From positions 3,967 through 67,966 of the forward strand of contig CAZOKP010000003.1 of assembly GCA_964580435.1 (NCBI GenBank): a DNA stretch of 64,000 bases, written 5' to 3'. The stretch is from an uncultured Eubacteriales bacterium. Lineage in GTDB: Bacteria; Acidobacteriota; Aminicenantia; Aminicenantales; UBA8522. The translations under genes were made by a program, and so were the position numbers. Each line of letters begins with the position of its first letter. The stretch's first letter is position 1. Under the pieces are notes generated by a model. It was given only the letters and a program-made list of their open reading frames with translations, ran no database searches and had not been told where the DNA came from. Below, piece after piece: positions 40,974-56,050 of this stretch.

Positions 40974-41432
40974 GTGATCAAAGTTTCTACCAAAGGAAGA
41001 TATGGTCTCCGCTTAATGTTAAACCTGGCCCGCCATTATAACAGCGGTACAAAGGCAGTCATCCTGAGAAACGTGGCCGAAGAGGAGGAAATCTCCCTCC
41101 GCTATCTAGAGCAGATCATCATTCCTCTGAAGATCTACAAGCTTGTGAAAAGTATTCGCGGAGCCGGCGGCGGCTACACTCTGGCCCGGAAACCTTCAGA
41201 GATCAACCTCTGCGAAATTCTGGAAGCCCTGGAAGGGACGTGCGCCCTCGTCGACTGCATCGAGGACAAGGATTTTTGCGACCGTCTCCCCGGCTGCGCC
41301 GCCTACGAGGTCTGGAAAGAAGCCAGCCGGATCCTGAAAAACTATTTCGAAAAGGTCACCCTCCAGTACGTCCTGGATATCTCCGAAAAAAAGAAGCCCA
41401 AAGGCAGGGATAAAGGCCGAGTTCGGCGCTGA
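40974..41432 (+). CDS. Rrf2-family transcriptional regulator with Cys cluster (probable Fe-S/redox sensing)
   Basis: N-terminal wHTH (STKGRYGLRLMLNLA). It has the GTCALVDC-x6-C-x5-C cysteine pattern. GTG start with a good RBS. Confidence 0.8.
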   Translation: MIKVSTKGRYGLRLMLNLARHYNSGTKAVILRNVAEEEEISLRYLEQIIIPLKIYKLVKSIRGAGGGYTLARKPSEINLCEILEALEGTCALVDCIEDKDFCDRLPGCAAYEVWKEASRILKNYFEKVTLQYVLDISEKKKPKGRDKGRVRR

Positions 41433-41518: not shown

Positions 41519-41547
41519 TTGACATTCCCTGCCCTCTTCTGTATAAA
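41519..41547 (+). promoter_or_regulatory. Sigma70-like promoter (TTGACA-17-TATAAA) upstream of the multiheme cytochrome cluster
   Basis: Near-consensus -35 and -10 boxes, ~80 nt upstream of the proposed TTG start of the decaheme gene. Confidence 0.5.
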
Positions 41548-41626
41548 ATCTATCGAATTTATAGAACATATAAATTCTCTCAATAAAGAGACAAGATGGA
41601 CGAAGAATTCCTCAAGGAGGTTGGAG

Positions 41627-42487
41627 TTGCCAGCGACAATAAAAAGAAGGCGAAATAGAGTCTCCCTCACGACGTGCGCCCTCCTGGTTGTGGTTATTGC
41701 CGCCGTCGGGTTGGGGATAGCAGCCAGGCCGGCTCCTCAGGCAAAAGACGCCGAGACCTGCGGCACCTGCCACGAAGACCTGGTCAAGGCCTTTGCCTCC
41801 CGGCCTCATGCTGCTTTAGCCGGCAAGACCTGCACGGCCTGCCACGGCAGCGGAGAAAAACACATTGAAGAAGGGGGCAAAACCGGGATCTTTGCCTTTG
41901 CGGCCTCGGACCTGGTCAGCGAAAAAACCAACACGTGCCTGACCTGTCACGCCAAGGACAATCCCCGCTTCCTGACGAGCCCGCATGGAAAAGCTTCTCT
42001 CGACTGCACCACCTGCCACAGCGTTCACGGCGAGGAAGCCGCTTCTCCCCTGCTCAAGACCAAAGAGAACAAAGTCTGCGCCCGCTGCCATGAAGACATT
42101 TTTGCCCAGTTCCAGCTCAACGAACGGCACCGGCTTCAGGAAGGAATCCTGTCCTGCGCCACCTGCCACAACCCCCACGAACCTTCTGCAAGAACGATGC
42201 TGGGCGGGTTCAAACAGGAACAGTGCCTCAAATGCCACACCGACAAGGGCGGACCTTTCCTGTATGAGCATCAAGCCTCCCGCGTCGAGGGCTGCACTGC
42301 CTGCCATGAAGTCCATGGATCACCTAATCGGCATATGCTGACCCACCAGAGCGTCGCCGACCTCTGCTTCAGCTGCCACGCCGAAGCGCCGGCCTGGCAC
42401 GCCGACTTCAGTCCCGAAGGGACCAACTGCGTGAACTGTCATTCCGCCATCCATGGCTCGAACCTGGACAAGAGATTCCTGAAATAG
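41627..42487 (+). CDS. Periplasmic decaheme c-type cytochrome, MtrA/PioA/MtoA-like
   Basis: Ten CXXCH motifs in ~290 mature residues. The N-terminal signal/anchor follows the proposed TTG start, which has GGAGG 6 nt upstream. The track ORF starts at 41480. Size and haem count match MtrA-family electron conduits. A porin-like gene follows. Confidence 0.7.
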   Translation: MPATIKRRRNRVSLTTCALLVVVIAAVGLGIAARPAPQAKDAETCGTCHEDLVKAFASRPHAALAGKTCTACHGSGEKHIEEGGKTGIFAFAASDLVSEKTNTCLTCHAKDNPRFLTSPHGKASLDCTTCHSVHGEEAASPLLKTKENKVCARCHEDIFAQFQLNERHRLQEGILSCATCHNPHEPSARTMLGGFKQEQCLKCHTDKGGPFLYEHQASRVEGCTACHEVHGSPNRHMLTHQSVADLCFSCHAEAPAWHADFSPEGTNCVNCHSAIHGSNLDKRFLK

Positions 42488-42497
42488 GAGAAATAGG

Positions 42498-44363
42498 ATG
42501 AGTCGGGAAAAAACCATCGGAATGTTCTTGGGCGTGGCGTTTGTGTTCTCCCTCGCCCCTACCCTCGAGGCCCAGAGCAGCAACTTTTACGGCGATTTCC
42601 TGCTGGGATATCGATATGTGAACAAGAGCGGCCCCGGAGCCAACTACAAGTATAGAGAGGACTACAACCTCCGCAGCGGGGCTCGCCTGACGAACTTCAC
42701 TCTCAGCTTCTCGCCGGATAACGGGCTCAAAAAGTTCTTCGACCGGCTGGACATCCGGATGTACAACCTTGGCGGAGACCCCTATGAGAACATCACCGTG
42801 GCCATGCAGAAGTACGGCAAGTATCTGATCCAGTATGACCGGAACAAATCGACCTATTTCTATCACGACCTGAACCTGGGCGACGGCGGCATCCCTTACG
42901 ACCTGTACAGGTTTGATTTCGACCGGGTCAGGGATACGGGCCTGGCTAAAGTCTGGCTGACCGGTCAAGCCGACCTCTATCTGAGCTTTGACCGTTACAC
43001 CAAAAAGGGGGACAGCCGGTACCCCCGCGACATCGAAAGACTGGAATTCCAGATGACCGGGCCCATCCAGGAAGAATCCAAGGAAGCCGCTGTCGGTCTC
43101 GACCTCCACTTCAACCGCTACTCCTTTATTTTCGAAGAAAAATTCCTGAACTCCAAGATCGAAAATAGGACCTTCCTTCCCGGCTACCTCGACGGAGGCC
43201 CTAACGCTGAATTTCCCACGGCGCTTTATTATTACTTCCTGAATGAGCCCTACGAGATCAAGTCCAACACCAGTTCCTTCAGATTCAACGCCCGACCGAT
43301 CAGCCGGCTCTTCCTGAGCGGGTCGGCCCAACTCACCCAGCTCGACCTGAACCTGGATTATTCAGAGCGAGCTAAGGGGGTCAATTATCTCGACAGGTAT
43401 TTTCAATACGACATCACCGGCACTGGCAAATTCGAGCGCAACTTTCAGCTCTATGGCCTGGATGTCTCTTACAATCTCTTCGATAACCTCAGCATCGTCG
43501 GGGCCTTTCGCTATCACAACTTCGACCAGACCGGCTCTCTCGAGATAAGCGGCGAGACAGAATCCCAGGATTTCGGGTACAAAACCCTTGGAGTCGACGC
43601 CGGCGTCCAATACCAGTTCTCCCCGAAGTTGGCCATGACCCTCGGCTATCGCTATGAAGACCGGAATCTGGACAACCTGGAGACGGTCACTTTTGAATTC
43701 GACACGGTCAAGAACGGCGGTTTCGGGAACCTTAAATGGGACGTTTCCCGGGCCTTAAAGCTGACCGTTGATTACGAGCGCAGCCAGTACACAGACCCCT
43801 TTACGCTGATCTCCCCGACAGCTTTTGACAGGCTGAGGATAACGGCAAGATACCAGGCCAATAACCTGAGCATCTCGGGGTCCTATCTCTGGAACAACTC
43901 CAAGAGCGAGGTCTTCGAGGATATCTGGAGAGCATCCAAGAACCAGTTCAATCTGCGCTTGGGCTATCATGTCGACCGTTTCAACGCCTCCGGAGGATTC
44001 GCTTACATCCAGGCCAAACGTCAAGGCAACCGGACCGTGAGCTTTCCTCCCTGGTGGACGGGGCCGGGCGGGACTTTCCTTTGGGAGATTCTTTACGAGG
44101 GGAAATCCAGCCTGCTGGACGGCTTGCTCTCTTATGACCTAGACAAGAATTGGAAACTCGGCGGCTATGCCAACTATTATTCCAATACAGGTTCCTGGGA
44201 AACCAGACGGACTGTTCTCAAGGCCTTCGTTGAATATGCTTTTACGGCCGGATATGTGGCCCAGGTCGGCTACAGGTTCGTTGATTATAAAGAGATAAAA
44301 TTCGGCTACAGTGATTACAAAGCCAATATTGTCGAGTTCGCCTTTGGCTATCGCTGGAAATAA
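42498..44363 (+). CDS. Outer-membrane beta-barrel porin, MtrB/PioB/MtoB-like partner of the decaheme cytochrome
   Basis: Signal peptide (…APTLEA/QSS), 621 aa, pervasive alternating aromatic/hydrophilic beta-strand pattern. It ends in the aromatic C-terminus FAFGYRWK. Immediately 3-prime of the MtrA-like gene, as in known porin-cytochrome gene pairs. Confidence 0.6.
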   Translation: MSREKTIGMFLGVAFVFSLAPTLEAQSSNFYGDFLLGYRYVNKSGPGANYKYREDYNLRSGARLTNFTLSFSPDNGLKKFFDRLDIRMYNLGGDPYENITVAMQKYGKYLIQYDRNKSTYFYHDLNLGDGGIPYDLYRFDFDRVRDTGLAKVWLTGQADLYLSFDRYTKKGDSRYPRDIERLEFQMTGPIQEESKEAAVGLDLHFNRYSFIFEEKFLNSKIENRTFLPGYLDGGPNAEFPTALYYYFLNEPYEIKSNTSSFRFNARPISRLFLSGSAQLTQLDLNLDYSERAKGVNYLDRYFQYDITGTGKFERNFQLYGLDVSYNLFDNLSIVGAFRYHNFDQTGSLEISGETESQDFGYKTLGVDAGVQYQFSPKLAMTLGYRYEDRNLDNLETVTFEFDTVKNGGFGNLKWDVSRALKLTVDYERSQYTDPFTLISPTAFDRLRITARYQANNLSISGSYLWNNSKSEVFEDIWRASKNQFNLRLGYHVDRFNASGGFAYIQAKRQGNRTVSFPPWWTGPGGTFLWEILYEGKSSLLDGLLSYDLDKNWKLGGYANYYSNTGSWETRRTVLKAFVEYAFTAGYVAQVGYRFVDYKEIKFGYSDYKANIVEFAFGYRWK

Positions 44364-44381: not shown

Positions 44382-46703
44382 ATGTTCAAAAGACCATACC
44401 TCTTAGGTCTTCTGGCTGTCCTTTTGATTTCTTCATTCCTGCTGGCGAATTCAGGCAGCCACAAATTCAAAGCTCAATCCAAGGAAGACAAAAATCGAAG
44501 GCTCTGGGCCACCTCGGCCCACGCCGCCAAGGATGACGAGCCTTTCGTCCATTGGAATGACACAGGCTCGATCCCCAAAGAGTGCGCCAAATGCCACAGC
44601 ACGCCCGGCTTCCGTGATTATCTCGGCGTCGACGGCACGGCCGTGGATGTGGTAGAAAATAGCGTTCCTGTGGGCACAACGGTCGAGTGCGCCGCCTGCC
44701 ATTCCGACCCTGACAACGGGGTCGTCCATGACCGCACCTATGCCATCTTTCCTTCGGGCGTGAAGGTCGAAGGACTCGGCCCGGAAGCGATGTGCATGGA
44801 ATGTCACCAGGGAAGGGCTTCGACGAAATCCATCAACAGTTCAATCGCCGGCTCCGGCGTGACTTCAGATGACGACCCCAGCTCCAAGCTGAAGTTTATC
44901 AACGTCCACTACTTTGCCGCTGCCGCCACTCAGCTCGGGACAGTCGTCCAGGGAGGATATCAGTACGCTGGAAAATCGTACGACGCCCGGTTCGCCCATA
45001 TCCCCGGATACAACGCCTGCCAGGTCTGTCATAATCCTCACTCTCTCGAAGTCGACCTAGAAGCCTGCAATACCTGCCATACCGGCGTCAAGGACCCGAA
45101 AGACATCCGCTTTTACGGATCTTTGGTCGACTACGACGGCGACGGGAATATCACCGAAGGCATCTACTACGAGATCGAGACAATCAGGGAGAACCTGTAC
45201 AACAGCATGCGGGCTTACGCCAGGGATGTCGTTGGGAAACCGATCGCCTATGATGGAAATAGCTATCCCTATTTCTTCAATGATAAGAACGACAACGGAG
45301 TTGTTGATTCCGACGAAGCGGACCCCAGCAACGGATACAGCTCCTTTACCGCCCGACTTCTCAAGGCCGCCTACAATCTCCAAGTGTCCGTAAAAGATCC
45401 TTGCCAATATGTCCACAACGGAAAATACATCATCGAGCTCTTGTATGATTCGATCGAGGACCTCAATTCTTCCCGTGGCGCCGGAACAGCCAAGACCGCG
45501 GTTTCGAAACCCCGTCTTACAAGGCCTTTGCAGGCCGACCGCAGGATCAAAGCCGGCGGCCAAGATCGAATCTCTCTCTTGAGGAATGATGATATCCTCA
45601 CCGGGAACCAGGTGGAGTCGTTCGGGGATGACTATTTGCAATATGCGCCTGCCCCCGGCCACGGCCTTGTCCGGACTGACGAAGGCCATTTCGACGGTTC
45701 TGCCGAAGCCTGGAGACACTGGGATGAAGAGGGAGAGGTTCCGTCAAGCTGCGCCAAATGCCATAGCGCCGAAGGTCTCCCCTACTTGCTCGAGAACGGC
45801 AAGATCGACAAGGCCATGGATATTTCTAACGGCCTGCTCTGCATGACCTGCCACATCGTGCCACCCCAGACAAGGCCAGTCGGTCCGGTGAAATTTCCCT
45901 CCGGAGTGAGCGTGGACCTGGGCGACAGCTCCAACCTGTGTCTCAACTGCCATCAGGGAAGAGCTTCAAAATTCTCGGTTGACAAGAGCATCGCCGGCGG
46001 CCCGGGGCCATACGGCTTTACCAACATCCATTATTATGCAGCGGCGGCTTCCTTCTTCGGCTCCGAAGTCCATGGCGGATACGAATTCAGCGGCAAAACT
46101 TATGCCGGGCGCAATATCTACACCAACCACAGCGGACTTTTCACCGATTGTATCGAGTGTCATATGGGGACCAAGAGCTTCAACAGGAAGCACGACGACT
46201 CTGACGCCTTGTTCCACAACGTCCAGACGCCCAACCCCGCCGATTGTGCGCCCTGTCATGGACAGGACATCGCCCAGCCCCATCCCGGTGCTGACCCCGG
46301 CCAGTTCGAGTTCGAGGGGATTCGGCCGGCCCAGACTCCTGACTACGATGCCGACGGAAACAAGAACGAATCCCTGCAGGCTGAGATCAAAGGGCTCGAA
46401 AATGCGCTCTACGCCCAGATTCAGACGTATGGCTCGAATATCGGCGCACCGATTGTCTACAACGAAACAAGCTATCCTTATTTCTTCAAAGATACGAACG
46501 GGAACGGCATTGTGGACCCTGATGAGCTGGATCCCGGCAACGGGTACGAATTCAATGCGCCCATGCTTAAGGCCGCGTATAATTTTCAGATGAGCAAGAA
46601 AGAGCCGTGCGGCTATATCCACAATCCCCGTTATATCGCTGAATTGCTCGCCGATTCTATCGGAAGTCTTGGCGGAAATATGAAAAAGTACACTTGGCGG
46701 TAA
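44382..46703 (+). CDS. Secreted decaheme c-type cytochrome built from two duplicated pentaheme modules
   Basis: Signal peptide and ten CXXCH motifs. Two internally homologous halves each end in …SYPYFF(N/K)D.N.NG.VD.DE.DP.NGY…LKAAYN(L/F)Q.S.K.PC.Y.HN..YI.ELL.DS. No lipobox. Confidence 0.7.
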   Translation: MFKRPYLLGLLAVLLISSFLLANSGSHKFKAQSKEDKNRRLWATSAHAAKDDEPFVHWNDTGSIPKECAKCHSTPGFRDYLGVDGTAVDVVENSVPVGTTVECAACHSDPDNGVVHDRTYAIFPSGVKVEGLGPEAMCMECHQGRASTKSINSSIAGSGVTSDDDPSSKLKFINVHYFAAAATQLGTVVQGGYQYAGKSYDARFAHIPGYNACQVCHNPHSLEVDLEACNTCHTGVKDPKDIRFYGSLVDYDGDGNITEGIYYEIETIRENLYNSMRAYARDVVGKPIAYDGNSYPYFFNDKNDNGVVDSDEADPSNGYSSFTARLLKAAYNLQVSVKDPCQYVHNGKYIIELLYDSIEDLNSSRGAGTAKTAVSKPRLTRPLQADRRIKAGGQDRISLLRNDDILTGNQVESFGDDYLQYAPAPGHGLVRTDEGHFDGSAEAWRHWDEEGEVPSSCAKCHSAEGLPYLLENGKIDKAMDISNGLLCMTCHIVPPQTRPVGPVKFPSGVSVDLGDSSNLCLNCHQGRASKFSVDKSIAGGPGPYGFTNIHYYAAAASFFGSEVHGGYEFSGKTYAGRNIYTNHSGLFTDCIECHMGTKSFNRKHDDSDALFHNVQTPNPADCAPCHGQDIAQPHPGADPGQFEFEGIRPAQTPDYDADGNKNESLQAEIKGLENALYAQIQTYGSNIGAPIVYNETSYPYFFKDTNGNGIVDPDELDPGNGYEFNAPMLKAAYNFQMSKKEPCGYIHNPRYIAELLADSIGSLGGNMKKYTWR

Positions 46704-46719: not shown

Positions 46720-46749
46720 GGCGGCATCAAAAAATGCCGCCGTTTTTTT
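46720..46749 (+). terminator. Rho-independent terminator after the decaheme cytochrome gene
   Basis: GGCGGCAT-caaaaa-ATGCCGCC followed by GTTTTTTTA. Confidence 0.75.
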
Positions 46750-46758
46750 ACCATTTTT

Positions 46759-46840: not shown

Positions 46841-48076
46841 ATGAAGAAAGGATTTTTCCTGATCGCCTTGCTCAGCTTGCTTTTGCCTCCGGCTCTCCGC
46901 GGCCAGGAGTGCCTGGAATGTCATAAAAAGACTACGCCCAACATCGTCGGCGACTGGCTGGAAAGCAAGCACAGCAAAAATGACGTAACCTGTTCTATTT
47001 GCCACGGGGAAGAACACAAGACTGCTGCGGATTTTGCCAAAGCCAGGATCCCCACACCTGAAACGTGCGCTGCCTGTCACGAAGAACAGGTAAGCCAGTT
47101 CAAACGGGGCAAACACGCCTTGGCGTGGGCCGCCATGAAAGCCATGCCTACAGCCCATGCTCAGCCCGTCGCGATGATGGAGGGGATGAAGGGATGCGGC
47201 GGATGCCATAAGATCGGACTGAAAACCGAAGCGGAAATAGAAGAGCTCGATAAAGCCGGCGCTGGATTCGGTCGAGCCTCATGCGATGCCTGCCACACGC
47301 GGCATATTTTCTCCACCGCCGAAGCCCGGCAACCTCAAGCCTGCCAGACCTGTCACATGGGCTTCGATCATCCTCAATGGGAGATGTACTCCGCTTCCAA
47401 GCACGGCGTCCGCTTTCTCCTGAAACAAAACAAGACCCTCCCCGAGTCGGTTGCCGCGCCGACCTGCCAGACCTGCCATATGCAGGAGAAAAACCACGAA
47501 GTCCGGACCGCTTGGGGTTTTCTGGCCGTCCGGCTGCCCATGCCTGAGGACAAGCAATGGGCTGCAGATAGAGCAACCATCCTCCAGGCTCTCGGCGTTC
47601 TGGACCCTGCCGGTAACCCCACAGCAAGGCTCGATGTCGTCAAGGCAGCGGACGTCGCCCGTCTTAGTCAGGAAGCCTGGCAGAAAGAACGGGACAAAAT
47701 GATCGGCATCTGCAACCGTTGCCACAGCGTGAATTTTGCCAAAGCAGAGCTCGAAAAAGGCGACCAGATGATCAAAGAAGTGGACCATCTGATGGCGGAG
47801 GCCATCCTGACGGTCGCGTCTCTCTACAAAGACGGCGTTTTGCCGAAACCGGCGAACTACGCTTATCCGTTTCCCGATCTTCTGACCTTCCATGACGCGC
47901 CGACCGAAGTGGAGCAGAAGCTCTTCGTGATGTTTCTCGAACACCGGATGCGCGCCTTCCAGGGGACCTTCCACGCCAACCCGGACTATGCACTCTGGTA
48001 CGGTTGGAGCGAAATGAGGCGGTCGCTCACAGAGATCCAGACTCTCGCTGCGGCTAAGCGCAAAAACCAAACGTGA
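46841..48076 (+). CDS. Periplasmic octaheme c-type cytochrome
   Basis: Signal peptide and eight CXXCH motifs (CLECH, CSICH, CAACH, CGGCH, CDACH, CQTCH, CQTCH, CNRCH) in 411 aa. Confidence 0.7.
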   Translation: MKKGFFLIALLSLLLPPALRGQECLECHKKTTPNIVGDWLESKHSKNDVTCSICHGEEHKTAADFAKARIPTPETCAACHEEQVSQFKRGKHALAWAAMKAMPTAHAQPVAMMEGMKGCGGCHKIGLKTEAEIEELDKAGAGFGRASCDACHTRHIFSTAEARQPQACQTCHMGFDHPQWEMYSASKHGVRFLLKQNKTLPESVAAPTCQTCHMQEKNHEVRTAWGFLAVRLPMPEDKQWAADRATILQALGVLDPAGNPTARLDVVKAADVARLSQEAWQKERDKMIGICNRCHSVNFAKAELEKGDQMIKEVDHLMAEAILTVASLYKDGVLPKPANYAYPFPDLLTFHDAPTEVEQKLFVMFLEHRMRAFQGTFHANPDYALWYGWSEMRRSLTEIQTLAAAKRKNQT

Positions 48077-48145
48077 CCAAGACGGGACGGTGTTTAACCA
48101 CCGCTAAAATTAGTGGCCATTGAAAGGACGATGTAAGGATCAGGA

Positions 48146-49501
48146 ATGAAGGCCCTGCTCAATTTTTTCACCTCGGTCCGGGTGGCCATCACCCTGCTGA
48201 TCATCCTCATCTGCGCCTCGATCATAGGAACGCTCATACCTCAAGGGAGAAGCGCGCAGGAATACCTCGTCCGCTACGGCCAGCTCGGCACCCTGCTGGA
48301 GCGGCTCCAGCTCACCAGGCTTTATCATTCCTTCTGGTTTATTGCACTGCTCGCGCTATTTTCCCTGAACATCATCGTCTGCACGCTCGAAAGGCTCTTT
48401 CCCAAATTCCGGCGGACCTTCCGGCCGAAGTTGGAGACCGAACCCAAGAACATTCTCGCTTTGAAAATCAGGGATAAATTCAAAGTCGGCCTGACAGTTG
48501 CCGAAACCAGGGAGATGGTCAAGAAGGAACTCACCCGCCGCCGCTACCGGCTTAGGGAAGCTGAGACCGAAACCAAGCACTGCTTTACCGCCCGGAAGAG
48601 GGACCTGGGCTGGTTCGGGTCCGATATCGTCCACTTGGGCATCCTCGTGATCCTAGCCGGAGGAATCGCCAGCGGACTCGGTGGTTACCGCAAAGACCTC
48701 ACCTTTAGTGAAGGCCAGACTCTTTCCGTTCCCGGGGCGAATTTCTCTGTCCGACTGGACAAGTTCGTCACGGAATACTATCCTAACGGAAGTGTCAAGG
48801 ACTGGAAAAGCCTCCTCACCGTGACTGAGGACGGAAAGCCCCTCTTCCAAAAAGCAGTCGAAGTCAATTATCCCCTAAATCATCAAGGCTACGTTTTTTA
48901 TCAAAGCGGCTACGGTTGGGATTGGGAGCATCCCTCGCTCGAAGTCTGGGTGAAGAAAAAGCAGAACCCGACCTATCTCAAAAAGGTCTGGCTGAAGGTC
49001 GGCGAGAAAACGGCCCTGGAAGGTGAATCCCTTGTGCTCAACGCGCTCCAGTTCATCCCTGATTTCGTCCTCGACGAAAAAAACCAGCCGGCCGCCCGCT
49101 CGTTGGAGCCAAACAATCCGGCGGCTTTCATCGAAGGCTGGGAGGGGCCCGAAAAGGTGTTCTCCGGCTGGATTTTCGCCAAGTTCCCCGATTTTTCACG
49201 CCTCCACTCGGGGGCCAAGGAACCGGATATTTCCCTCGAACTCAAGGACGTCCGGGCGCCCAATTACTCGGTCATCCACGTGGCCAAGGACCCGGGCGTA
49301 TCGCTCATCTGGAGCGGCTGCGTCCTGCTGATGGCGGGGCTCGTCCTGGCCTTTTACTGGCCGACGAGAGAATTGAAGATTATTCTGGAGGACAGCCAGG
49401 GGAAGACAGGCGTCACAGCCGGCGGAATTTCTATTAAGAGCCGGGAGGTCTTTCAAACGGAATTTGAAAGCATCATCAACTCTCTAAGGAAACGCAAATG
49501 A
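48146..49501 (+). CDS. resB: Cytochrome c biogenesis protein ResB/CcsB (System II)
   Basis: N-terminal TM segments (…VRVAITLLIILICASIIGTL…). A large periplasmic domain and a C-terminal TM helix follow. 451 aa. Overlaps ccsA by 4 nt. Confidence 0.8.
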   Translation: MKALLNFFTSVRVAITLLIILICASIIGTLIPQGRSAQEYLVRYGQLGTLLERLQLTRLYHSFWFIALLALFSLNIIVCTLERLFPKFRRTFRPKLETEPKNILALKIRDKFKVGLTVAETREMVKKELTRRRYRLREAETETKHCFTARKRDLGWFGSDIVHLGILVILAGGIASGLGGYRKDLTFSEGQTLSVPGANFSVRLDKFVTEYYPNGSVKDWKSLLTVTEDGKPLFQKAVEVNYPLNHQGYVFYQSGYGWDWEHPSLEVWVKKKQNPTYLKKVWLKVGEKTALEGESLVLNALQFIPDFVLDEKNQPAARSLEPNNPAAFIEGWEGPEKVFSGWIFAKFPDFSRLHSGAKEPDISLELKDVRAPNYSVIHVAKDPGVSLIWSGCVLLMAGLVLAFYWPTRELKIILEDSQGKTGVTAGGISIKSREVFQTEFESIINSLRKRK

Positions 49502-50316
49502 CTGAATCCACTTTTTTCCTGCTTGCTTTCATCCTTTATGCTTTGGCCGCTGCCTTCTACTTTTCCTATCTTTTCTCCAAAAAGGAAAACCGGGCCACGA
49601 TCGGTTTCGCCGTTGCCCTGGCGGGTCTGCTCATCCATACGCTGGCCTTAGTTTTTAGGACGGTCGAAAGCGGCCATGCGCCCTTCACCAACATGTACGA
49701 GTCCCTCTCCTTTCTGGCCTGGGCTTCTATCCTGGCCTTCATCATCATCGAGGCAAAATACAAGGTCAGGAGGCCGGGGGCTTACCTGCTGCTTATTGTG
49801 ATCGCCCTCATGGCCCTGGCGTCTTCGCCGCTCATGCCGAAAGAAGCCACTCCTCTTGTTCCGGCGCTGCAGAGTTACTGGCTCTGGCTGCATGTTTCCG
49901 TTACGCTTATCGGCGAGGCCTTTTTTGCCATCGCCTTCATCACCAGCATCATGTACCTTGCGGCCGACGCCAAAGAACGAAAAGGGAAAGCAGCGAAATC
50001 GGGGCTCACCGCGGAGAGACTTGACTCCATCAGCTACCGCACCATCGCGATCGGTTTTCCGCTCTTCACCTTGGGAGGGCTCGTCTTCGGCATGGTCTGG
50101 GCTTATAAGGCCTGGGGAACCTACTGGAGCTGGGACCCCAAGGAGGTTTGGAGCCTGATCACCTGGTTCGTCTTTGCCCTGTATCTCCACACCCGGATCG
50201 TCATGGGCTGGAAGGGCCGGCGTTCGGCCGCCATCGCCATCATCGGATTTCTCGCTGCCCTCTTCACTTACTTTGGCGTGAATTACCTGCTGGCGGGGCT
50301 GCACAGTTATGCCTGA
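49498..50316 (+). CDS. ccsA: Cytochrome c biogenesis protein CcsA/ResC (System II haem exporter-lyase)
   Basis: Polytopic membrane protein with a Trp-rich WGxxWxWD-type region (WAYKAWGTYWSWDPKEVW), 272 aa. Confidence 0.8.
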   Translation: MTESTFFLLAFILYALAAAFYFSYLFSKKENRATIGFAVALAGLLIHTLALVFRTVESGHAPFTNMYESLSFLAWASILAFIIIEAKYKVRRPGAYLLLIVIALMALASSPLMPKEATPLVPALQSYWLWLHVSVTLIGEAFFAIAFITSIMYLAADAKERKGKAAKSGLTAERLDSISYRTIAIGFPLFTLGGLVFGMVWAYKAWGTYWSWDPKEVWSLITWFVFALYLHTRIVMGWKGRRSAAIAIIGFLAALFTYFGVNYLLAGLHSYA

Positions 50317-50409: not shown

Positions 50410-52422
50410 ATGAAGATGCGGATAACCAAGAAAAGGACCCTTATCTCCCTTGCCGTTCTTGGCTTTCTCCTGCTTCTTTTCATCGCCGCAGCCGAAATCA
50501 CGTCCCAGTCCAGGTTCTGCTCCACCTGCCACTACATGAAACCCTTTTACCAGAGCTGGAAAACCTCCTCCCATGGCAACGTCCAGTGTAGTGTCTGTCA
50601 TTATCCTCCCGGATTGAGGTCCTTCTTCAGGGCGAAGGTGGAAGGATTGATGCAGCTGGGCCGGTATTGGACCAAGCTCTACCTCAAGTCCAGACCCTGG
50701 GCGGAGATTCCGGATGAAAGCTGTCTGCGTCAGGGATGCCACGACACCAGGCTTCTCGAGGGCCGAGTGAAATTCAAGGAGGTCATCTTCGACCACAAGA
50801 TCCACCTCGAGGACTTGAAAAGAGGAAAGAAACTTCGCTGCACGAGCTGCCACTCCCAGATCGTCCAGGGAGAGCATATTACTGTCACCGAGACTACGTG
50901 TTTTATCTGCCATTTTAAAAAGAGCGAACATTACCCCCAGATCGGCCAGTGCTCCCACTGTCACATCCAGCAAGATCTGGTCTCGAAACAAACCTCCCGG
51001 TTCAACCATACGGTCGTTTTCGAAAAAAAATTCAGCTGCGACAAATGTCACAGCCAGGTCGTCGTGGGCGACGGTGCCGTCCCCCGCGAGAACTGTTATA
51101 AATGTCATTTTGAGAAAGAGAGGCTGGATCAATATTCCGACACGGATTTAATCCATTCCACCCATATCACAGCCCATAAGATCGAGTGTAACCAATGCCA
51201 TTTGCAGATTCAGCACAAAATTGTCAAAGACATCGAGACCATCGCCGATTGCCGGACCTGCCACACGGGCTTCCATCAGGCCCAGAAGATTCTGTACACC
51301 GGCGAAGGCGGAAAAGGCATTGCCCATGCTCTGCCCAATGTCATGCTGGAAAAAGGGCTGAGCTGCAAGGGCTGCCACATGTTCCACGAGGAGGCGGGCG
51401 GAAAGTTGGTCAAGAGCGAGACCTCGATCTCGAAGGAGCAGGCCTGCGAATCCTGTCACGGAGCAGGATTCGCTCGAGTTCTCCGGTACTGGCAGGTCTC
51501 GACCGAGAAAAGGCTGAGCCAGATCAGGAGGATCTATCAAAGATCTTCCCAGGAAGTCGGGCTGAGCAAGAGCCCTAATCGGGAAAGGGCCAAGCCATTG
51601 CTTGACGATGCGGCCTTTAACATCGACGTCGTCGAGAGAGGCAAAAGCGTCCATAATATGGCCTACTCACAAGAGCTTCTTCAGGCCGCCATTGCCTATA
51701 TGGAGGAAGCCCTGCAGCTCGTCGGTTCTTCTTATAAGCCAGAAAAATTCCTGCCGGAAACAAAGGACATCCCCTCGCAATGCTCCCAGTGCCACGCCGG
51801 GATCGAAGAGATCAATGGCCGGGTCTTCGGGCTGTCCTTTCCCCACAAAACGCATGTCGTCGGCCAGAAAATGCAGTGTTCGACCTGCCATTCCAATGCG
51901 AAAAAACACGGTGAATTCATCGGCTCCAAAAAACAGTGCGCCACTTGTCATCATCAGGATATCAAGAAAGACTGCGGAAGCTGCCATATCCTCCAAAAGA
52001 CCCTCTATGTGGGAGGGACGTTAGATGGCTGGGAAGTCCCCAAGGATATGATGGCCGAGGCGAACGTCGGCTGTGCCGATTGCCACGCCCTGGACAAAGG
52101 TCAGATCCGCCCGGCCGACAGCTCCACGTGCATGAATTGCCATGAAGAGAGCTACACAAAGACGTTTGCGGAATGGCAGGATGCATATAAAAAGCAGCGG
52201 GATTCTCTCCTCACCAGCCTTGAAGTAAAGAGAAGGCTTAAGCTGCCCGAGGGAGACCGAGCCAAACTTGCCGAGGTCGAGCAGATGCTCAGAAAACTCG
52301 AGGACGACGGAAGCTCCTCCGTTCACAACTCCCAGTTCATCGAAGACCTGTTGACAAAACTTGAACTCCGGATAAAATCTATCCAGGAACAGCCGGCGCA
52401 TGAAGAGACGGACATTCGTTAA
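50410..52422 (+). CDS. Membrane-anchored multiheme cytochrome with NapC/NirT/NrfH-like N-terminus (17 CXXCH + 1 CX4CH)
   Basis: N-terminal TM helix followed by CSTCHYMKPFYQSWKTSSHGNVQCSVCH, as in NrfH/NapC quinol dehydrogenases. Fifteen further CXXCH motifs and one CLRQGCH follow. C-terminal coiled-coil-like tail. 670 aa. Confidence 0.7.
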   Translation: MKMRITKKRTLISLAVLGFLLLLFIAAAEITSQSRFCSTCHYMKPFYQSWKTSSHGNVQCSVCHYPPGLRSFFRAKVEGLMQLGRYWTKLYLKSRPWAEIPDESCLRQGCHDTRLLEGRVKFKEVIFDHKIHLEDLKRGKKLRCTSCHSQIVQGEHITVTETTCFICHFKKSEHYPQIGQCSHCHIQQDLVSKQTSRFNHTVVFEKKFSCDKCHSQVVVGDGAVPRENCYKCHFEKERLDQYSDTDLIHSTHITAHKIECNQCHLQIQHKIVKDIETIADCRTCHTGFHQAQKILYTGEGGKGIAHALPNVMLEKGLSCKGCHMFHEEAGGKLVKSETSISKEQACESCHGAGFARVLRYWQVSTEKRLSQIRRIYQRSSQEVGLSKSPNRERAKPLLDDAAFNIDVVERGKSVHNMAYSQELLQAAIAYMEEALQLVGSSYKPEKFLPETKDIPSQCSQCHAGIEEINGRVFGLSFPHKTHVVGQKMQCSTCHSNAKKHGEFIGSKKQCATCHHQDIKKDCGSCHILQKTLYVGGTLDGWEVPKDMMAEANVGCADCHALDKGQIRPADSSTCMNCHEESYTKTFAEWQDAYKKQRDSLLTSLEVKRRLKLPEGDRAKLAEVEQMLRKLEDDGSSSVHNSQFIEDLLTKLELRIKSIQEQPAHEETDIR

Positions 52423-52825
52423 CTTCTTCTTGGGAGGCTCTCTCGTCGGGACTCTAAGCTCGCTTCTTTATCCCATCATCCGCTATCTCATCCCCCCGCG
52501 TCAGGCTGAGGCGGTGGCAAAGAAAATTGCCGCCGCCAAAGTAGGAGAGTTAGCTCCCAACTCCGCGAAGCTGTTCAAATTCGGGTCCTCTCCCGCCCTC
52601 TTGATTAATACCGCCGAGGGCCAGCTCCGGGCTTTTTCCGCCGTGTGCACTCACCTAACCTGCACGGTCAGCTATGAGAGCGACACCAGCACGCTTTATT
52701 GTCCCTGTCATAACGGCCGGTTCGACCTCGCCGGGAATGTCATATCCGGGCCGCCGCCCCGCCCATTAGAGACTTATGAAATCGAGGTGGTCAGCGGCGA
52801 TATCCTTGTCTCTAAGAAAGCTTAG
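52400..52825 (+). CDS. Rieske [2Fe-2S] iron-sulfur protein (bc-complex type)
   Basis: N-terminal TM/Tat-like segment and Rieske boxes CTHLTC…CPCHNG. The start overlaps the preceding cytochrome gene by 23 nt. Confidence 0.8.
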   Translation: MKRRTFVNFFLGGSLVGTLSSLLYPIIRYLIPPRQAEAVAKKIAAAKVGELAPNSAKLFKFGSSPALLINTAEGQLRAFSAVCTHLTCTVSYESDTSTLYCPCHNGRFDLAGNVISGPPPRPLETYEIEVVSGDILVSKKA

Positions 52826-52826
52826 A

Positions 52827-53900
52827 ATGAGCCAGCTCATTAGGAACGCGGTCGCCTATCTCGAATCCAGATTCCAGTTTTCCGCCCTGGCCGAATTCGG
52901 CAAGAAAAAGAAAGTCCCGGAGCATAAATATTCTTTCTGGTATTACTTTGGCGGGCTGTGTCTTTTTCTTTTCTTTGTGCAGGTCGTTACGGGCATCCTC
53001 CTCCTTTTGTACTACACTCCCTCAGTCGATGCGGCTCATGAAAGCATTCAGTTCATCATGAGCCAGGTCAAATTCGGCTGGCTCATTCGTTCTGTCCACA
53101 GCTGGACGGCCAACATCCTGGTCGGAGCCATTTTCATCCACATGTTCAGCGCGTTCTTTCTCAAGGCCTACCGGCCGCCGCGGGATCTCACCTGGATCAG
53201 TGGATTCTTTCTCCTCATCTTCTTCCTGGCCTTCGGTTTCAGCGGCTATCTTCTTCCCTGGAATGAACTCTCGTTTTTCGCCACCCGGGTGGGAACGGAT
53301 ATCGCCGGCGTTATCCCTTACATTGGCAAAGCCCTCAAAACGTTCATTCTCGGAGGCCCGGAGGTTTCCGGCGCCACCCTGAGCCGGTTCTTCTGGCTTC
53401 ACGTGGCTGTTCTCCCGGCGATTGCGTTCGTCGTCCTGGGGATCCATATCTTCCTGGTCCAGGTCCTGGGGATGAGCAAGCCGATCGGGATCTCCGAGAG
53501 GAAGGAGATCTCTTTCTTCCCGACGTTCATCCTCAAGGACGCCCTGGTCTGGCTCCTCGTCTTGACTGCCATCGGCGTCCTCTGCGTCTTTTTCCCTTGG
53601 GAAGTGGGCCAAAAGGCCGACCCTTTCGCAGCGACGCCGATCGGCATCAAGCCCGAATGGTATTTCACCTTCATGTTCACGACACTCAAGCTCATCCCCC
53701 CTCACATTTTCTCCCTGGAAGGTGAGGTTCTGGCCATCCTGGGATTCATGCTGGGCGGATTGCTCTGGATGCTCGTTCCCTATCTTGACCGGAGGGCCGG
53801 CCGGGAGACGAAGAGTCCTGTTTTTTCAGGGGCAGGTTTTCTTATTCTGCTCTATATCATTGTCATGACGGCTCTGACCTACCTTGCACCCCGCATATAA
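52827..53900 (+). CDS. Cytochrome b of a bc-type complex (b6/subunit IV-like, fused)
   Basis: Polytopic with conserved haem-ligand His context (…SVHSWTANILVGAIFIHM…FGFSGYLLPWN…). The ATG at 52827 is 2 nt after the Rieske stop. The track ORF starts further upstream at 52776. Confidence 0.8.
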   Translation: MSQLIRNAVAYLESRFQFSALAEFGKKKKVPEHKYSFWYYFGGLCLFLFFVQVVTGILLLLYYTPSVDAAHESIQFIMSQVKFGWLIRSVHSWTANILVGAIFIHMFSAFFLKAYRPPRDLTWISGFFLLIFFLAFGFSGYLLPWNELSFFATRVGTDIAGVIPYIGKALKTFILGGPEVSGATLSRFFWLHVAVLPAIAFVVLGIHIFLVQVLGMSKPIGISERKEISFFPTFILKDALVWLLVLTAIGVLCVFFPWEVGQKADPFAATPIGIKPEWYFTFMFTTLKLIPPHIFSLEGEVLAILGFMLGGLLWMLVPYLDRRAGRETKSPVFSGAGFLILLYIIVMTALTYLAPRI

Positions 53901-53919
53901 CTGAGGTCAAAATATTACA

Positions 53920-55206
53920 TTGAAAGTGAAAGAGAACAAAGAACGGGACAAAAACCGGATGAGATCGAAGCTCGTCTCTGTTGTCTCATTTTTGTTCCTC
54001 CTGGCCCTTCCTCTCTCGCTCTTCGGCCAAAAAAATTCCTGCCTGGAATGCCACAAGGAGATGGATGATCAGAACCTGCGCGCTCCTGTGGATGGATTCG
54101 CGACGGATGTTCATCGGCAATTCGGTCTGGGCTGCCAGGACTGCCATGGAGGCAACCCCCTGCAGGATGACGTGGGACTGGCCAAGGACAAGTCCTTCAA
54201 GGGGGCGCCCGGGAAAGCCAAGGTGCCGGAATTCTGCGGCTCCTGCCATTCCAATTCCGAGTACATGAGGCGCTTCAATCCAAATGTACGCGTGGACCAG
54301 CTTCAGACCTACTGGACGAGCAAGCACGGCGAGCTCCTGAGAAAAGGCGACACGAATGTCGCCGTCTGCACGGACTGCCATGGAATTCATGGGATTCAAG
54401 CCTCCAATTTCCCCAAATCCTCGACCTTCGCCTGGAACATCCCCCAGACCTGCGGCCGTTGCCATTCCAGCCAGGATGTGATGAAGGCCTACGGCATTCC
54501 CGTCAACCAAGTCGACGATTATAAACACAGCGTCCATGCGACCGCCCTTTTCGATAAAAAGGACCTCTCGGCGCCGGTCTGCAATGACTGCCATGGAAAT
54601 CACGGCGCTGCACCCCCTCAAGTTACGTCAATCGCTTTTGTCTGCCGGCAGTGCCATCCGAGCGCCGGAGACCTCTTTACTCAAAGCCCTCACAAGGCTG
54701 CTTTCGACGGACTGGGGATTTCGGAATGCGAAGCCTGCCACGGCAATCACAAGATTCTCGCCCCCACCGACGAGATGCTCGCCGGAGGACGCAACGACGT
54801 CTGCAGCCAGTGCCATGACACCGGGACCAAGCCTTATGAGACCGGGCTCGAGATGAAGCGGAAGCTCTCGGGCTATGTGGCCACATTTCAAACCGCCGAA
54901 GACCTTCTCGAAAGAGCCGAAAAACAGGGCGTCGAGGTCAGCGATCCTCGGTTCAAGCTCCAGGAGGCCTCCACGGCCTTGATCCTCGTCCGGAACCTGA
55001 CCCACGGCCTTTCCCTCACGGACATGGAAGCGAAGCTCGCTGAAGGGGACAACGTCATCGCCGAGGTCAAAGCGCTCGGCGGCGCCGCTTTGAAGGAAGC
55101 GAAATTCCGCAAGACAGGCCTTGTCATCACCACCGTCTTCATCTTCCTTCTCGCCCTGGCCCTTTATTTCAAGATCCGCGAGCTCCAGTCGCGACCCAAG
55201 GCCTAG
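53920..55206 (+). CDS. Nonaheme c-type cytochrome with C-terminal transmembrane anchor
   Basis: Nine CXXCH motifs and a C-terminal hydrophobic helix (GLVITTVFIFLLALALYF). The real start may be the internal Met near 53950, which is followed by a signal peptide. It follows the Rieske/cyt b genes directly. Confidence 0.7.
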   Translation: MKVKENKERDKNRMRSKLVSVVSFLFLLALPLSLFGQKNSCLECHKEMDDQNLRAPVDGFATDVHRQFGLGCQDCHGGNPLQDDVGLAKDKSFKGAPGKAKVPEFCGSCHSNSEYMRRFNPNVRVDQLQTYWTSKHGELLRKGDTNVAVCTDCHGIHGIQASNFPKSSTFAWNIPQTCGRCHSSQDVMKAYGIPVNQVDDYKHSVHATALFDKKDLSAPVCNDCHGNHGAAPPQVTSIAFVCRQCHPSAGDLFTQSPHKAAFDGLGISECEACHGNHKILAPTDEMLAGGRNDVCSQCHDTGTKPYETGLEMKRKLSGYVATFQTAEDLLERAEKQGVEVSDPRFKLQEASTALILVRNLTHGLSLTDMEAKLAEGDNVIAEVKALGGAALKEAKFRKTGLVITTVFIFLLALALYFKIRELQSRPKA

Positions 55207-55476: not shown

Positions 55477-55519
55477 GGGGTTTCTTTTTGGAACAATTCA
55501 TGATCCCCAGGGAGGAACG

Positions 55520-56041: not shown

Positions 56042-56050
56042 ACCGCATTT

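What the first reader, a model, noticed from the sequence alone, without database searches (positions are those of the whole stretch)
41627..44363. MtrA-like decaheme plus MtrB-like 600-aa beta-barrel: candidate porin-cytochrome transmembrane conduit
A 10-CXXCH periplasmic cytochrome of ~290 mature residues is immediately followed by a secreted 621-aa protein. That protein has beta-barrel strand periodicity and an aromatic C-terminus. This is the hallmark gene pair of MtrAB/PioAB/MtoAB outer-membrane electron conduits. The putative TTG start with strong RBS for the cytochrome is notable.
Basis: partly seen in the sequence, partly recalled or inferred. Interest (0 to 1): 0.7.

Follow-up and report, generated by a model that had tools for sequence, protein, structure and literature searches.

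The report
Mtr-like outer-membrane electron conduit operon
This stretch of an uncultured Aminicenantes (Acidobacteriota) genome encodes a ten-heme cytochrome and a large outer-membrane barrel that closely resemble the MtrA/MtrB "insulated wire" that metal-respiring bacteria use to pass electrons across the outer membrane. A third, structurally uncharacterised ten-heme protein sits in the same operon.

Summary

- **Cytochrome:** 41627-42487 encodes a 286-aa precursor with exactly 10 CXXCH. Its best solved relative is MtrA (6r2q_A, E 9e-29). It scores 185.2 bits on the DmsE/MtrA decaheme model, just under the 192.2 cutoff, against 41 bits for NrfB.
- **Synteny:** the decaheme-barrel pair is adjacent in all 75 related genomes where upstream DNA exists, mostly Aminicenantes, plus other Acidobacteriota, Gemmatimonadota and Calditrichaceae.
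- **Operon:** a conserved promoter, a conserved TTG start and a terminator at 46720 bracket a three-gene operon. The third gene (44382-46703) encodes a 773-aa decaheme built from two tandem pentaheme modules. It has no lipobox and no solved relative.
- **Context:** the operon opens an ~18-kb cytochrome island with quinol-oxidase-like modules and system II cytochrome maturation genes.

Verdict: a divergent member of the known Mtr-type porin-cytochrome kind. Direction of electron flow and the location of the third cytochrome are inferred only. Interest is moderate.

The parts
40974..41432 (+). Rrf2-family transcription regulator with a C-x4-C-x6-C-x5-C cluster of cysteines. It is the candidate regulator of the conduit operon.
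   Evidence: Pfam Rrf2 at 115.9 bits. An rrf2 homologue lies upstream of the decaheme gene in more than half of the 80 related loci. A regulatory link is inferred, not shown.
41519..41547 (+). Sigma-70-type promoter: TTGACA, 17 nt, TATAAA.
   Evidence: Read directly from the sequence. CTTGACA and TATAAA are invariant columns in the alignment of nine related intergenic regions. The consensus scan did not list it because the scan requires T at position 6 of the -10 hexamer.
41555..41577 (+). Perfect 9-bp inverted repeat GAATTTATA-N5-TATAAATTC at the expected transcription start. It is a candidate operator.
   Evidence: It occurs once in the window against 0.02 expected by chance. A core YTAT-N7-ATAR is conserved in the nine-locus alignment. 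Which protein binds it is unknown.
41614..41629 (+). Ribosome-binding site AAGGAGG plus the TTG start codon of the decaheme gene.
   Evidence: GAGGAGGT and TTG invariant in 9 loci. The NCBI gene call is the 286-aa form.
41627..42487 (+). MtrA/DmsE-like periplasmic decaheme c-type cytochrome: a 286-aa precursor, about 250 aa mature.
   Evidence: It has 10 CXXCH. TIGR03508 scores 185.2 bits against a cutoff of 192.2. Its best PDB relative is 6r2q_A, MtrA, at E 9.3e-29 over residues 40-280. All ten motifs are present in 64 of 65 orthologues, and 11 further His are conserved.
42498..44363 (+). MtrB-like outer-membrane beta-barrel (621 aa, signal peptide, no cysteine).
44382..46703 (+). 773-aa decaheme cytochrome made of two tandem pentaheme modules joined by a linker of about 75 residues that is predicted to be disordered. 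It has a Sec signal peptide and no lipobox. It is the candidate surface or terminal partner of the conduit.
   Evidence: It has 10 CXXCH, and its two halves are 38% identical (E 1e-66). PF22113 (MtrC/MtrF domain II/IV) scores 30.1 bits against a cutoff of 30. The AF2 model has pLDDT 66 and the linker 368-445 scores below 30. No solved relative was found by fold or profile. The gene follows the barrel gene in 64 related loci.
46720..46750 (+). Intrinsic terminator (GGCGGCAT-loop-ATGCCGCC followed by T7) that closes the three-gene operon.
46841..50316 (+). Context: an octaheme HAO-like cytochrome (46841-48076) and the system II cytochrome c maturation genes ResB (48146-49501) and CcsA (49498-50316).
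   Evidence: Pfam PF13447, ResB and Cytochrom_C_asm. There are 8 CXXCH in the first protein. The genes are syntenic in many related loci.
50410..59349 (+). Context: candidate inner-membrane and periplasmic feeders.
- A NapC/NirT-type 17-heme cytochrome (50410-52422).
- Rieske protein (52400-52825), cytochrome b (52776-53900) and a 9-heme cytochrome (53920-55206).
- A 4-heme c554-like protein (55523-56041).
- 9-heme and 11-heme membrane-anchored cytochromes (56051-57331, 57336-58580).
- A b561-type cytochrome b (58573-59349).
   Evidence: Pfam hits and heme counts. Their connection to the conduit is inferred from clustering only.

Best explanation
The operon 41519-46750 encodes an Mtr-type porin-cytochrome conduit of an Aminicenantes bacterium.

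- The decaheme is exported by Sec and matured by the neighbouring ResB/CcsA system. It inserts as a roughly linear chain of ten bis-His hemes into the lumen of the ~26-stranded barrel, forming an insulated wire across the outer membrane as in MtrAB.
- On the periplasmic side it is fed by the multiheme and quinol-oxidising modules encoded downstream.
- On the outer side it most likely hands electrons to the co-transcribed 773-aa tandem-pentaheme decaheme. That protein would play the role of MtrC and reduce extracellular acceptors such as Fe(III)/Mn(IV) minerals, humic or particulate organic matter, or partner cells.
- The upstream Rrf2 regulator and the palindrome at the transcription start probably tie expression to iron or redox status.

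Shown here: heme count and conservation, homology of the cytochrome to MtrA, the MtrB-like fold of the barrel, strict synteny, and the operon boundaries.

Inferred: threading of A into B, extracellular location of C, outward direction of electron flow, and the regulation.
For: - The cytochrome has ten CXXCH. These are conserved in 64 of 65 orthologues, with 11 extra conserved His, enough for bis-His ligation.
- MtrA of the solved Mtr complex is the best PDB relative, E 9.3e-29 over residues 40-280 of 286. The DmsE/MtrA model scores 185.2 bits.
- 12 of 49 family members hit Pfam MtrB_PioB, best E 9.8e-10. NCBI names one relative 'MtrB/PioB family'.
- The decaheme gene is immediately upstream of the barrel gene in all 75 loci with upstream DNA, across several phyla. 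The third decaheme follows in 64 loci.
- Intergenic gaps are 10 and 18 nt, each with its own RBS. The promoter and TTG start are conserved and a terminator follows gene 3.
- Cytochrome maturation genes and NapC/NirT, Rieske/cytochrome b and b561 modules are adjacent.
- Some orthologues of gene 3 carry a Cys at the end of the signal peptide, making them possible lipoproteins like MtrC.
Against: - The barrel itself gives no hit to PF11854 or TIGR03509, and neither it nor its family profile matches MtrB by sequence. Identity in the structural alignment is only 14%, so common descent with MtrB is not proven, as opposed to convergence on a large barrel.
- The decaheme is under the curated cutoff (185.2 < 192.2) and about 50 residues shorter than MtrA.
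- The third cytochrome has no lipobox. Its model shows no MtrC-like beta-barrel domains and is of low confidence (pLDDT 66). It has no structural or profile match. It could therefore be periplasmic.
- No complex model, localisation data or expression data were obtainable.
- Papers in the searched library describe Aminicenantes as fermentative or saccharolytic (reference list).
Confidence: 0.85

Rival explanations
1. The same MtrAB-like conduit works inward, as in MtoAB/PioAB. It would take electrons from extracellular Fe(II), a cathodic mineral or a syntrophic partner and deliver them to the periplasm. The Rieske/cytochrome b complex downstream would handle the uphill or downhill branches.
For: - Distant relatives of the pair in other Acidobacteriota, Gemmatimonadota and Calditrichaceae occur as AB only, without the third cytochrome, like mtoAB/pioAB.
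- The barrel lacks the N-terminal CXXC motif. From my own recollection, this motif is typical of MtrB in metal-reducing Gammaproteobacteria and absent from the homologues of Fe(II) oxidisers (zero Cys).
- A bc-type complex is encoded nearby.
- Aminicenantes have been proposed as Fe(II) oxidisers on the basis of cyc2 (PMC7005843; PMC7914226).
Against: - A co-transcribed third decaheme is the hallmark of the reductive MtrCAB type.
- No MtoD-, PioC- or HiPIP-type carrier and no terminal oxidase were found in the island.
- NapC/NirT-type and b561-plus-multiheme modules resemble quinol oxidases of metal reducers. The comparison with CymA and CbcL rests on my own knowledge.
- Mtr conduits are reversible in vitro, so sequence cannot settle the direction.
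Confidence: 0.2
2. The pair is a DmsEF-type conduit that serves an extracellular non-cytochrome terminal reductase, or a soluble extracellular substrate, rather than minerals. In that case the 773-aa cytochrome is a periplasmic shuttle.
For: - The best-scoring curated model is named for DmsE.
- The 773-aa protein has an ordinary Sec signal, no lipobox and no MtrC-like fold evidence.
Against: - No molybdopterin or other reductase gene lies in or next to the operon. The neighbours are all cytochromes and maturation genes.
- Gene 3 is translationally tightly linked to the barrel gene and is co-conserved with it in 64 loci.
Confidence: 0.08
3. The barrel is an ordinary large porin or transporter, and the decaheme is a free periplasmic electron carrier (NrfB-like or STC-like). 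On this reading their adjacency has no mechanistic meaning.
For: - The only Pfam hit of the barrel above threshold is the generic OMP_b-brl.
- The decaheme also matches NrfB-like and c7/c3 domain models.
Against: - Adjacency holds in 75 of 75 loci across phyla.
- MtrB is the best structural match by a clear margin.
- The MtrA/DmsE score is far above NrfB, 185 against 41 bits.
- The genes sit 10 nt apart in a single operon.
Confidence: 0.04

Closest known systems
MtrCAB of Shewanella (structure 6R2Q, S. baltica; Edwards et al. 2020, Cell, as cited in PMC8528874)
   Same: - A periplasmic decaheme homologous to MtrA, with the match spanning residues 40-280 of 286.
- A large barrel with MtrB as its best structural match.
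- A third decaheme built from two pentaheme units in the same operon, with a borderline hit to the MtrC/MtrF pentaheme domain model.
   Different: - Gene order is A-B-C, not C-A-B.
- The barrel is only 14% identical to MtrB, has no CXXC motif and is about 50 residues shorter.
- The decaheme is about 50 residues shorter than MtrA.
- The third cytochrome has no lipobox. It has helical rather than beta-barrel accessory regions in a low-confidence model, a long disordered linker, and no detectable relation to solved MtrC, OmcA or UndA structures.
MtoAB / PioAB of Fe(II)-oxidising bacteria (same MtrA/MtrB superfamily)
   Same: - A decaheme gene is immediately followed by the barrel gene in A-then-B order.
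- The barrel has no CXXC motif.
- Distant relatives of this family occur as AB pairs only.
   Different: - A third decaheme is co-transcribed here.
- No MtoD-, PioC- or CymA(MtoC)-type partners are present in the operon.
- No sequence-model hit to MtrB/PioB was found for this barrel.
Mtr-like porin-cytochrome clusters of Acidobacteriota (Acidobacteriia MtrCAB, Baker et al. 2022, PMC8805035; peat 'EET1/EET2' clusters, bioRxiv 10.64898/2026.05.27.727921)
   Same: - The same phylum in the GTDB sense.
- Syntenic multiheme plus porin clusters that are structurally Mtr-like but have low sequence identity to the model systems.
   Different: - Those reports concern Acidobacteriia and Terriglobia (Bryobacterales), and Verrucomicrobiota.
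- None of the papers found treats Aminicenantes.
- I could not compare sequences with their clusters, so the relationship is untested.
Geobacter porin-cytochrome complexes (OmaB-OmbB-OmcB, ExtABCD) and the GSU2203/GSU2204 pair
   Same: - The same three-part logic: a periplasmic multiheme, a porin-like protein and an outer multiheme.
- Weak hits to the GSU2203 decaheme model (157.9 bits) and the GSU2204 model (41.1 bits).
   Different: - Both scores are far below their cutoffs of 325 and 350.
- From my own knowledge, Geobacter Pcc uses an octaheme periplasmic partner and a smaller porin that are not homologous to MtrAB.
- Here the periplasmic partner is clearly of the MtrA type.

Membership tests
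MtrA/DmsE decaheme cytochromes (NCBIfam TIGR03508) | Ten CXXCH heme-binding motifs in a protein of about 300 aa | tested here: met
   The protein has 10 CXXCH in 286 aa. All ten are present in 64 of 65 orthologues.
MtrA/DmsE decaheme cytochromes (NCBIfam TIGR03508) | Score at or above the curated family cutoff (192.2 bits) | tested here: not met
   The score is 185.2 bits (E 1.5e-54) with full-length coverage of the model, positions 2-257 of 258. That is 7 bits short. It is still the best-scoring family by a wide margin.
MtrA/DmsE decaheme cytochromes (NCBIfam TIGR03508) | Closest solved relative is MtrA, not NrfB or another non-conduit cytochrome | tested here: met
   6r2q_A (MtrA) matches at E 9.3e-29 over residues 40-280. 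NrfB (2ozy) matches at E 4.8e-8 over 60-158.
MtrA/DmsE decaheme cytochromes (NCBIfam TIGR03508) | Enough conserved distal His for bis-His ligation, and a Sec signal peptide | tested here: met
   11 non-motif His are at least 91% conserved. The N-terminus has RRRNR followed by a hydrophobic stretch ending IAA|RP. Actual ligation cannot be tested here.
MtrB/PioB outer-membrane barrels (Pfam PF11854; NCBIfam TIGR03509) | Hit to the family HMM | tested here: not met
   The window protein gives no PF11854 or TIGR03509 hit at E<=1. However, 12 of 49 close relatives hit PF11854 (best E 9.8e-10), and a distant relative scores 26.1 bits against a cutoff of 23. The family profile does not find 6r2q_B.
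MtrB/PioB outer-membrane barrels (Pfam PF11854; NCBIfam TIGR03509) | Large (~26-strand) plug-less beta-barrel fold like MtrB | tested here: met
MtrB/PioB outer-membrane barrels (Pfam PF11854; NCBIfam TIGR03509) | Gene adjacent to, and co-conserved with, an MtrA-type decaheme gene | tested here: met
   This holds in 75 of 75 related loci with upstream DNA. The gap in the window is 10 nt.
MtrB/PioB outer-membrane barrels (Pfam PF11854; NCBIfam TIGR03509) | N-terminal CXXC motif. This is a Shewanella-type, metal-reducer MtrB feature recalled from the literature and not a feature of the whole family. | tested here: not met
   The protein contains no cysteine at all.
MtrB/PioB outer-membrane barrels (Pfam PF11854; NCBIfam TIGR03509) | Decaheme threaded through the barrel lumen | not testable with these tools
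MtrC/OmcA/MtrF outer-surface decahemes | Ten hemes in two pentaheme domains | tested here: met
   The protein has 5 + 5 CXXCH, and its halves are 38% identical.
MtrC/OmcA/MtrF outer-surface decahemes | Lipoprotein signal peptide (lipobox Cys) | tested here: not met
   The signal peptide ...SSFLLANSGSH has no Cys. Most orthologues lack it too. Six of 24 have a Cys at that position.
MtrC/OmcA/MtrF outer-surface decahemes | Sequence or fold relation to MtrC: PF22113, and a four-domain fold with two beta-barrel domains | tested here: inconclusive
   PF22113 scores 30.1 bits against a cutoff of 30, over residues 61-147 only. The AF2 model has pLDDT 66 and shows helices but no beta-barrel domains. 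No PDB match was found by Foldseek, by sequence or by profile.
   NF008659 scores 40.9 bits against a cutoff of 184. The protein has ten hemes, not five.
Geobacter GSU2203 / GSU2204 pair (NCBIfam NF041028 / NF041027) | Scores at or above the family cutoffs | tested here: not met
   The scores are 157.9 against 325 for the decaheme and 41.1 against 350 for the barrel. The barrel has no CXXCH, unlike the GSU2204 family as named.

The most novel reading that the evidence does not exclude
Aminicenantes are treated as fermenters in the papers I found. On this reading they carry, as a lineage-wide trait, a complete respiratory route to extracellular electron acceptors. Its outer component would be a previously uncharacterised class of surface cytochrome: a lipid-anchor-free tandem-pentaheme decaheme with a long flexible linker, unrelated in fold to MtrC, OmcA or UndA, that docks on an MtrAB-like wire. 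This would be an independent solution for the last step of extracellular electron transfer.
Probability: 0.4. Interest if true: 0.6.

Novelty: new member of a known kind. Interest (0 to 1): 0.4.

Why it matters
Aminicenantes are abundant in anoxic sediments, aquifers, peat and digesters. In the papers I could search they are described as fermenters, or linked to iron only through cyc2.

A conserved Mtr-type conduit was found in related loci from 80 species-representative genomes, most of them Aminicenantes. It sits in an ~18-kb island encoding about 80 heme-binding motifs. This would mean these organisms can respire minerals or humic matter, or exchange electrons with partners, which would change how carbon and iron budgets in those habitats are assigned.

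The barrel family is also practically relevant. Standard MtrB/PioB models mostly miss it, so marker-gene surveys that rely on those HMMs probably under-count it.

The third cytochrome offers a new family for structural work on how electrons leave an MtrAB-type wire.

Tried and rejected
- **Barrel sequence against PDB:** searches with the barrel alone and with a 49-sequence profile found nothing relevant and did not find MtrB. The link to MtrB rests on fold, synteny and sporadic Pfam hits.
- **Bridging through distant relatives:** a full profile search of 1.84 billion representatives found 881 relatives. I scanned ten distant full-length ones for MtrB/PioB models. Only one passed PF11854 and none hit TIGR03509, so there is no clean sequence continuum to the curated family.
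- **The 773-aa cytochrome:** the model was only pLDDT 66. Foldseek against PDB, a PDB sequence search and a PDB profile search gave no meaningful match, so neither an MtrC-like nor any other known fold could be assigned.
- **afdb50 fold library:** not available.
- **The 9-bp palindrome at the transcription start:** it is not conserved exactly in other species. Only a shorter core is conserved.
- **Literature:** searches for Aminicenantes together with MtrB, porin-cytochrome or decaheme found no paper describing such a conduit. One hit was a false friend, the methanogen methyltransferase MtrB.
- **Upstream half of the window:** it holds housekeeping genes only and no type II secretion genes among the ten ORFs scanned.
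- **Rejected, the 265-aa start:** one gene caller used it, but it removes the signal peptide and ignores the conserved RBS and TTG.
Full report
**What is there**

On the + strand, a Rrf2-family regulator gene (40974-41432) is followed by a 195-nt intergenic region. That region contains TTGACA-17 nt-TATAAA (41519-41547), a perfect 9-bp inverted repeat at the expected transcription start (41555-41577), AAGGAGG (41614-41620) and a TTG codon at 41627.

Three tightly spaced genes follow.
- 41627-42487 encodes 286 aa.
- 42498-44363 encodes 621 aa, after a 10-nt gap with its own AGGAG.
- 44382-46703 encodes 773 aa, after an 18-nt gap with GAGGAGGAG.

A strong intrinsic terminator, an 8-bp GC-rich stem followed by T7, lies at 46720-46750. 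The unit is therefore a three-gene operon, one gene longer than the finding.

**Check of the observation**

The first protein has exactly ten CXXCH motifs and no variant motifs. Chance would give about 0.001.

The TTG start is well supported.
- In an alignment of the same intergenic region from nine related genomes, whose proteins are 55-77% identical, the -35 box, the -10 box, GAGGAGGT and the TTG are invariant columns.
- NCBI's own gene call on the 87-kb source contig is the 286-aa form.
- A 265-aa alternative used by another caller would delete the signal peptide.

- 286 aa is the precursor length, so the mature protein is about 250 aa, not 290.
- The barrel ends ...FGYRWK, with an invariant Trp at position -2 and a terminal Lys.

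The 621-aa protein has a signal peptide (cleavage around LEA|QSS) and contains no cysteine.

**The cytochrome**

- Against NCBIfam, the best model is the DmsE/MtrA decaheme family TIGR03508. It scores 185.2 bits (E 1.5e-54) and covers the whole model, but falls 7 bits under the curated cutoff of 192.2. NrfB scores 40.9 bits.
- Against all PDB sequences, the best hit is chain A of 6R2Q, the MtrA subunit of the Shewanella baltica Mtr complex, at E 9.3e-29 over residues 40-280. The local file labels that molecule wrongly. NrfB matches at E 4.8e-8 over a third of the protein.
- In 65 orthologues taken from loci where the gene precedes a barrel gene, all ten motifs are present in 64. Eleven further histidines are at least 91% conserved, enough for bis-His ligation of every heme.

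**The barrel**

Sequence models see only a generic outer-membrane beta-barrel domain (PF13505, 31 bits) and a weak similarity to the Geobacter GSU2204 family. The window protein gives no hit to Pfam MtrB_PioB or to TIGR03509. Neither the protein nor a 49-sequence profile finds MtrB in the PDB by sequence.

Structure tells a different story.
- An AlphaFold2 model built on 49 homologues is confident (pLDDT 86.4, pTM 0.77) and consists of 27 DSSP strand segments joined by mostly short turns.
- Foldseek against the PDB puts MtrB (6r2q_B) first at E 8e-18 and TM 0.66/0.64. The next hits are 22-strand TonB-dependent receptors at E about 1e-9 and TM about 0.44.

Alignment of 530 of about 595 mature residues implies essentially the same strand count as MtrB. 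That figure is 26 strands according to the structure paper, which I recall rather than tested here.

At family level there is a faint sequence link.
- 12 of 49 relatives hit PF11854, best E 9.8e-10.
- One distant relative passes its gathering score.
- NCBI names one relative 'MtrB/PioB family outer membrane beta-barrel protein'.

The second refutation criterion, that no barrel is predicted, is also not met.

**Conservation and distribution**

- The barrel has 311 relatives in the 90%-clustered database. All are from metagenomes, and the named ones are mostly Candidatus Aminicenantes.
- A filter-free profile search of 1.84 billion representatives found 881 clusters at E<=1e-3 and 142 at E<=1e-30.
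- In GTDB species representatives, 107 stretches encode a relative, and 80 loci were fetched.
- tblastn of the window's proteins against those loci shows a decaheme gene immediately upstream of the barrel gene in every one of the 75 loci that have upstream DNA.
- The 773-aa cytochrome gene lies immediately downstream in 64 loci.
- The most distant loci (33-35% barrel identity) carry the AB pair only. They are labelled Acidobacteriota, Thermoanaerobaculia, Gemmatimonadota and Calditrichaceae.

The AB pair is thus the conserved core, and the third gene is an addition typical of the Aminicenantes clade.

**The third gene**

- The 773-aa protein has a Sec-type signal peptide without a lipobox cysteine. 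It has ten CXXCH arranged as 5 + 5, and its two halves are 38% identical (E 1e-66), so it is a tandem duplication of a pentaheme module.
- Each module scores at threshold on the MtrC/MtrF pentaheme-domain model (PF22113, 30.1 bits against 30).
- Its AlphaFold model is only moderately confident (pLDDT 66). It shows helical accessory regions, no beta-barrel domains, and a linker of about 75 residues (368-445) with pLDDT below 30.
- Foldseek, a PDB sequence search and a PDB profile search all find nothing meaningful.
- In six of 24 orthologues a cysteine sits at the end of the signal peptide, for example ...VLAC and ...GTAC, so some relatives may be lipoproteins as MtrC is. The window protein and most others are not.

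Its role as the extracellular partner is therefore an inference from operon position and heme content. It is not a demonstrated homology.

**Surroundings**

Downstream, under its own promoter, lie the following genes.
- An octaheme HAO-like cytochrome (46841-48076).
- ResB and CcsA for system II cytochrome maturation (48146-50316).
- A membrane-anchored NapC/NirT-type cytochrome with 17 CXXCH (50410-52422).
- A Rieske protein, a cytochrome b and a 9-heme cytochrome (52400-55206).
- A 4-heme c554-like protein.
- Two membrane-anchored cytochromes with 9 and 11 hemes.
- A b561-type cytochrome b (58573-59349).

The pairing of an 11-heme cytochrome with a b561-type subunit resembles a split version of Geobacter CbcL. 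That comparison is from my own knowledge and was not tested. These are plausible quinol-pool connections, and many are syntenic in the related loci. The upstream 36 kb is housekeeping.

**Mechanism proposed**

The decaheme is exported, receives its hemes from ResB/CcsA, and sits inside the barrel as a heme wire spanning the outer membrane. Electrons from quinol oxidation at the inner membrane reach it through periplasmic or membrane-anchored multihemes. At the outer face they pass to the tandem-pentaheme cytochrome and on to insoluble or macromolecular acceptors.

The direction is the least certain part. The AB-only relatives, the lack of the CXXC motif and the nearby bc complex are compatible with inward transfer, as in MtoAB/PioAB. 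I give outward transfer about 0.6 and inward about 0.2. Such conduits are also known to be reversible.

**Comparison with what is known**

Functionally and architecturally this is an Mtr-type porin-cytochrome conduit.
- **Membership, decaheme:** MtrA/DmsE-family in everything except 7 bits of score.
- **Membership, barrel:** MtrB-like in fold and genomic context, but it fails the sequence models. I describe it as a divergent relative at the fringe of PF11854, not as a filed member.
- **Membership, third cytochrome:** not shown to be an MtrC-family protein.

Published surveys already report MtrCAB in Acidobacteriia and Gemmatimonadetes (PMC8805035). A 2026 preprint describes sequence-divergent Mtr-like clusters in peat Acidobacteriota and Verrucomicrobiota.

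In the searchable library no paper describes such a conduit in Aminicenantes. They are linked to iron only through cyc2 (PMC7005843; PMC7914226).

**Verdict**

It is a new, divergent member of a known kind. The co-transcribed tandem-pentaheme cytochrome is its one notably unfamiliar element, and it has clear ecological relevance. It is not a new principle. Interest 0.4. Confidence in the conduit explanation 0.85.

Noticed in passing
window 41555-41577 (and alignment A3 of nine loci): A perfect inverted repeat GAATTTATA-N5-TATAAATTC overlaps the expected transcription start of the conduit operon. A shorter core, YTAT-N7-ATAR, is conserved in related genomes. It is probably an operator, perhaps for the adjacent Rrf2 regulator, which has a C-x4-C-x6-C-x5-C cysteine cluster suggesting an Fe-S sensor.
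   Followed up: partly
window 46841-48076: An octaheme HAO-like cytochrome (PF13447; partial match to hydrazine dehydrogenase, 93 bits against a cutoff of 900) has its own promoter-like site. In related loci it is more conserved (71-87% identity) than the conduit proteins (42-77%). Its substrate is unknown.
   Followed up: no
window 50410-52422: A 670-aa membrane-anchored NapC/NirT-family cytochrome has 17 CXXCH plus one CX4CH, far more hemes than CymA or NrfH. It is syntenic with the conduit in many loci, in either orientation. It is a candidate quinol dehydrogenase with a built-in periplasmic wire.
   Followed up: partly
window 52400-55206: A Rieske protein and a cytochrome b are followed by a 9-heme cytochrome with a C-terminal membrane anchor. 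This is a bc-type complex with a multiheme in place of cytochrome c1.
   Followed up: no
window 56051-59349: Two multiheme cytochromes with C-terminal anchors (9 and 11 CXXCH) are followed by a b561/HydC-type cytochrome b. Together they resemble a split version of the Geobacter CbcL quinol oxidase. The resemblance is from memory and was not tested.
   Followed up: no
loci L002, L003, L007, L010, L029 (5' leader of the decaheme gene; alignment A3 columns ~250-295): One clade of related genomes has an extra conserved leader element, GAATGTCATCCCGCnCTGCGGGA, a short GC hairpin between promoter and RBS. It is absent from the window. It could be a regulatory RNA structure.
   Followed up: no
loci L067-L079: Distant relatives carry the decaheme-barrel pair without the 773-aa cytochrome. 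They are labelled other Acidobacteriota, Thermoanaerobaculia, Gemmatimonadota and Calditrichaceae. In L064 a 17-heme NapC-like gene directly follows the barrel gene. Many records are labelled 'uncultured Eubacteriales/Clostridia', which looks like a placeholder taxonomy for Aminicenantes-like bins.
   Followed up: partly
window 59496-62130: Two paralogous FAD-dependent oxidoreductase-like genes (454 and 419 aa; one has weak Pyr_redox_2/FAD_binding_3 hits and the other has no Pfam hit) lie directly after the cytochrome island. Their function is unknown.
   Followed up: no
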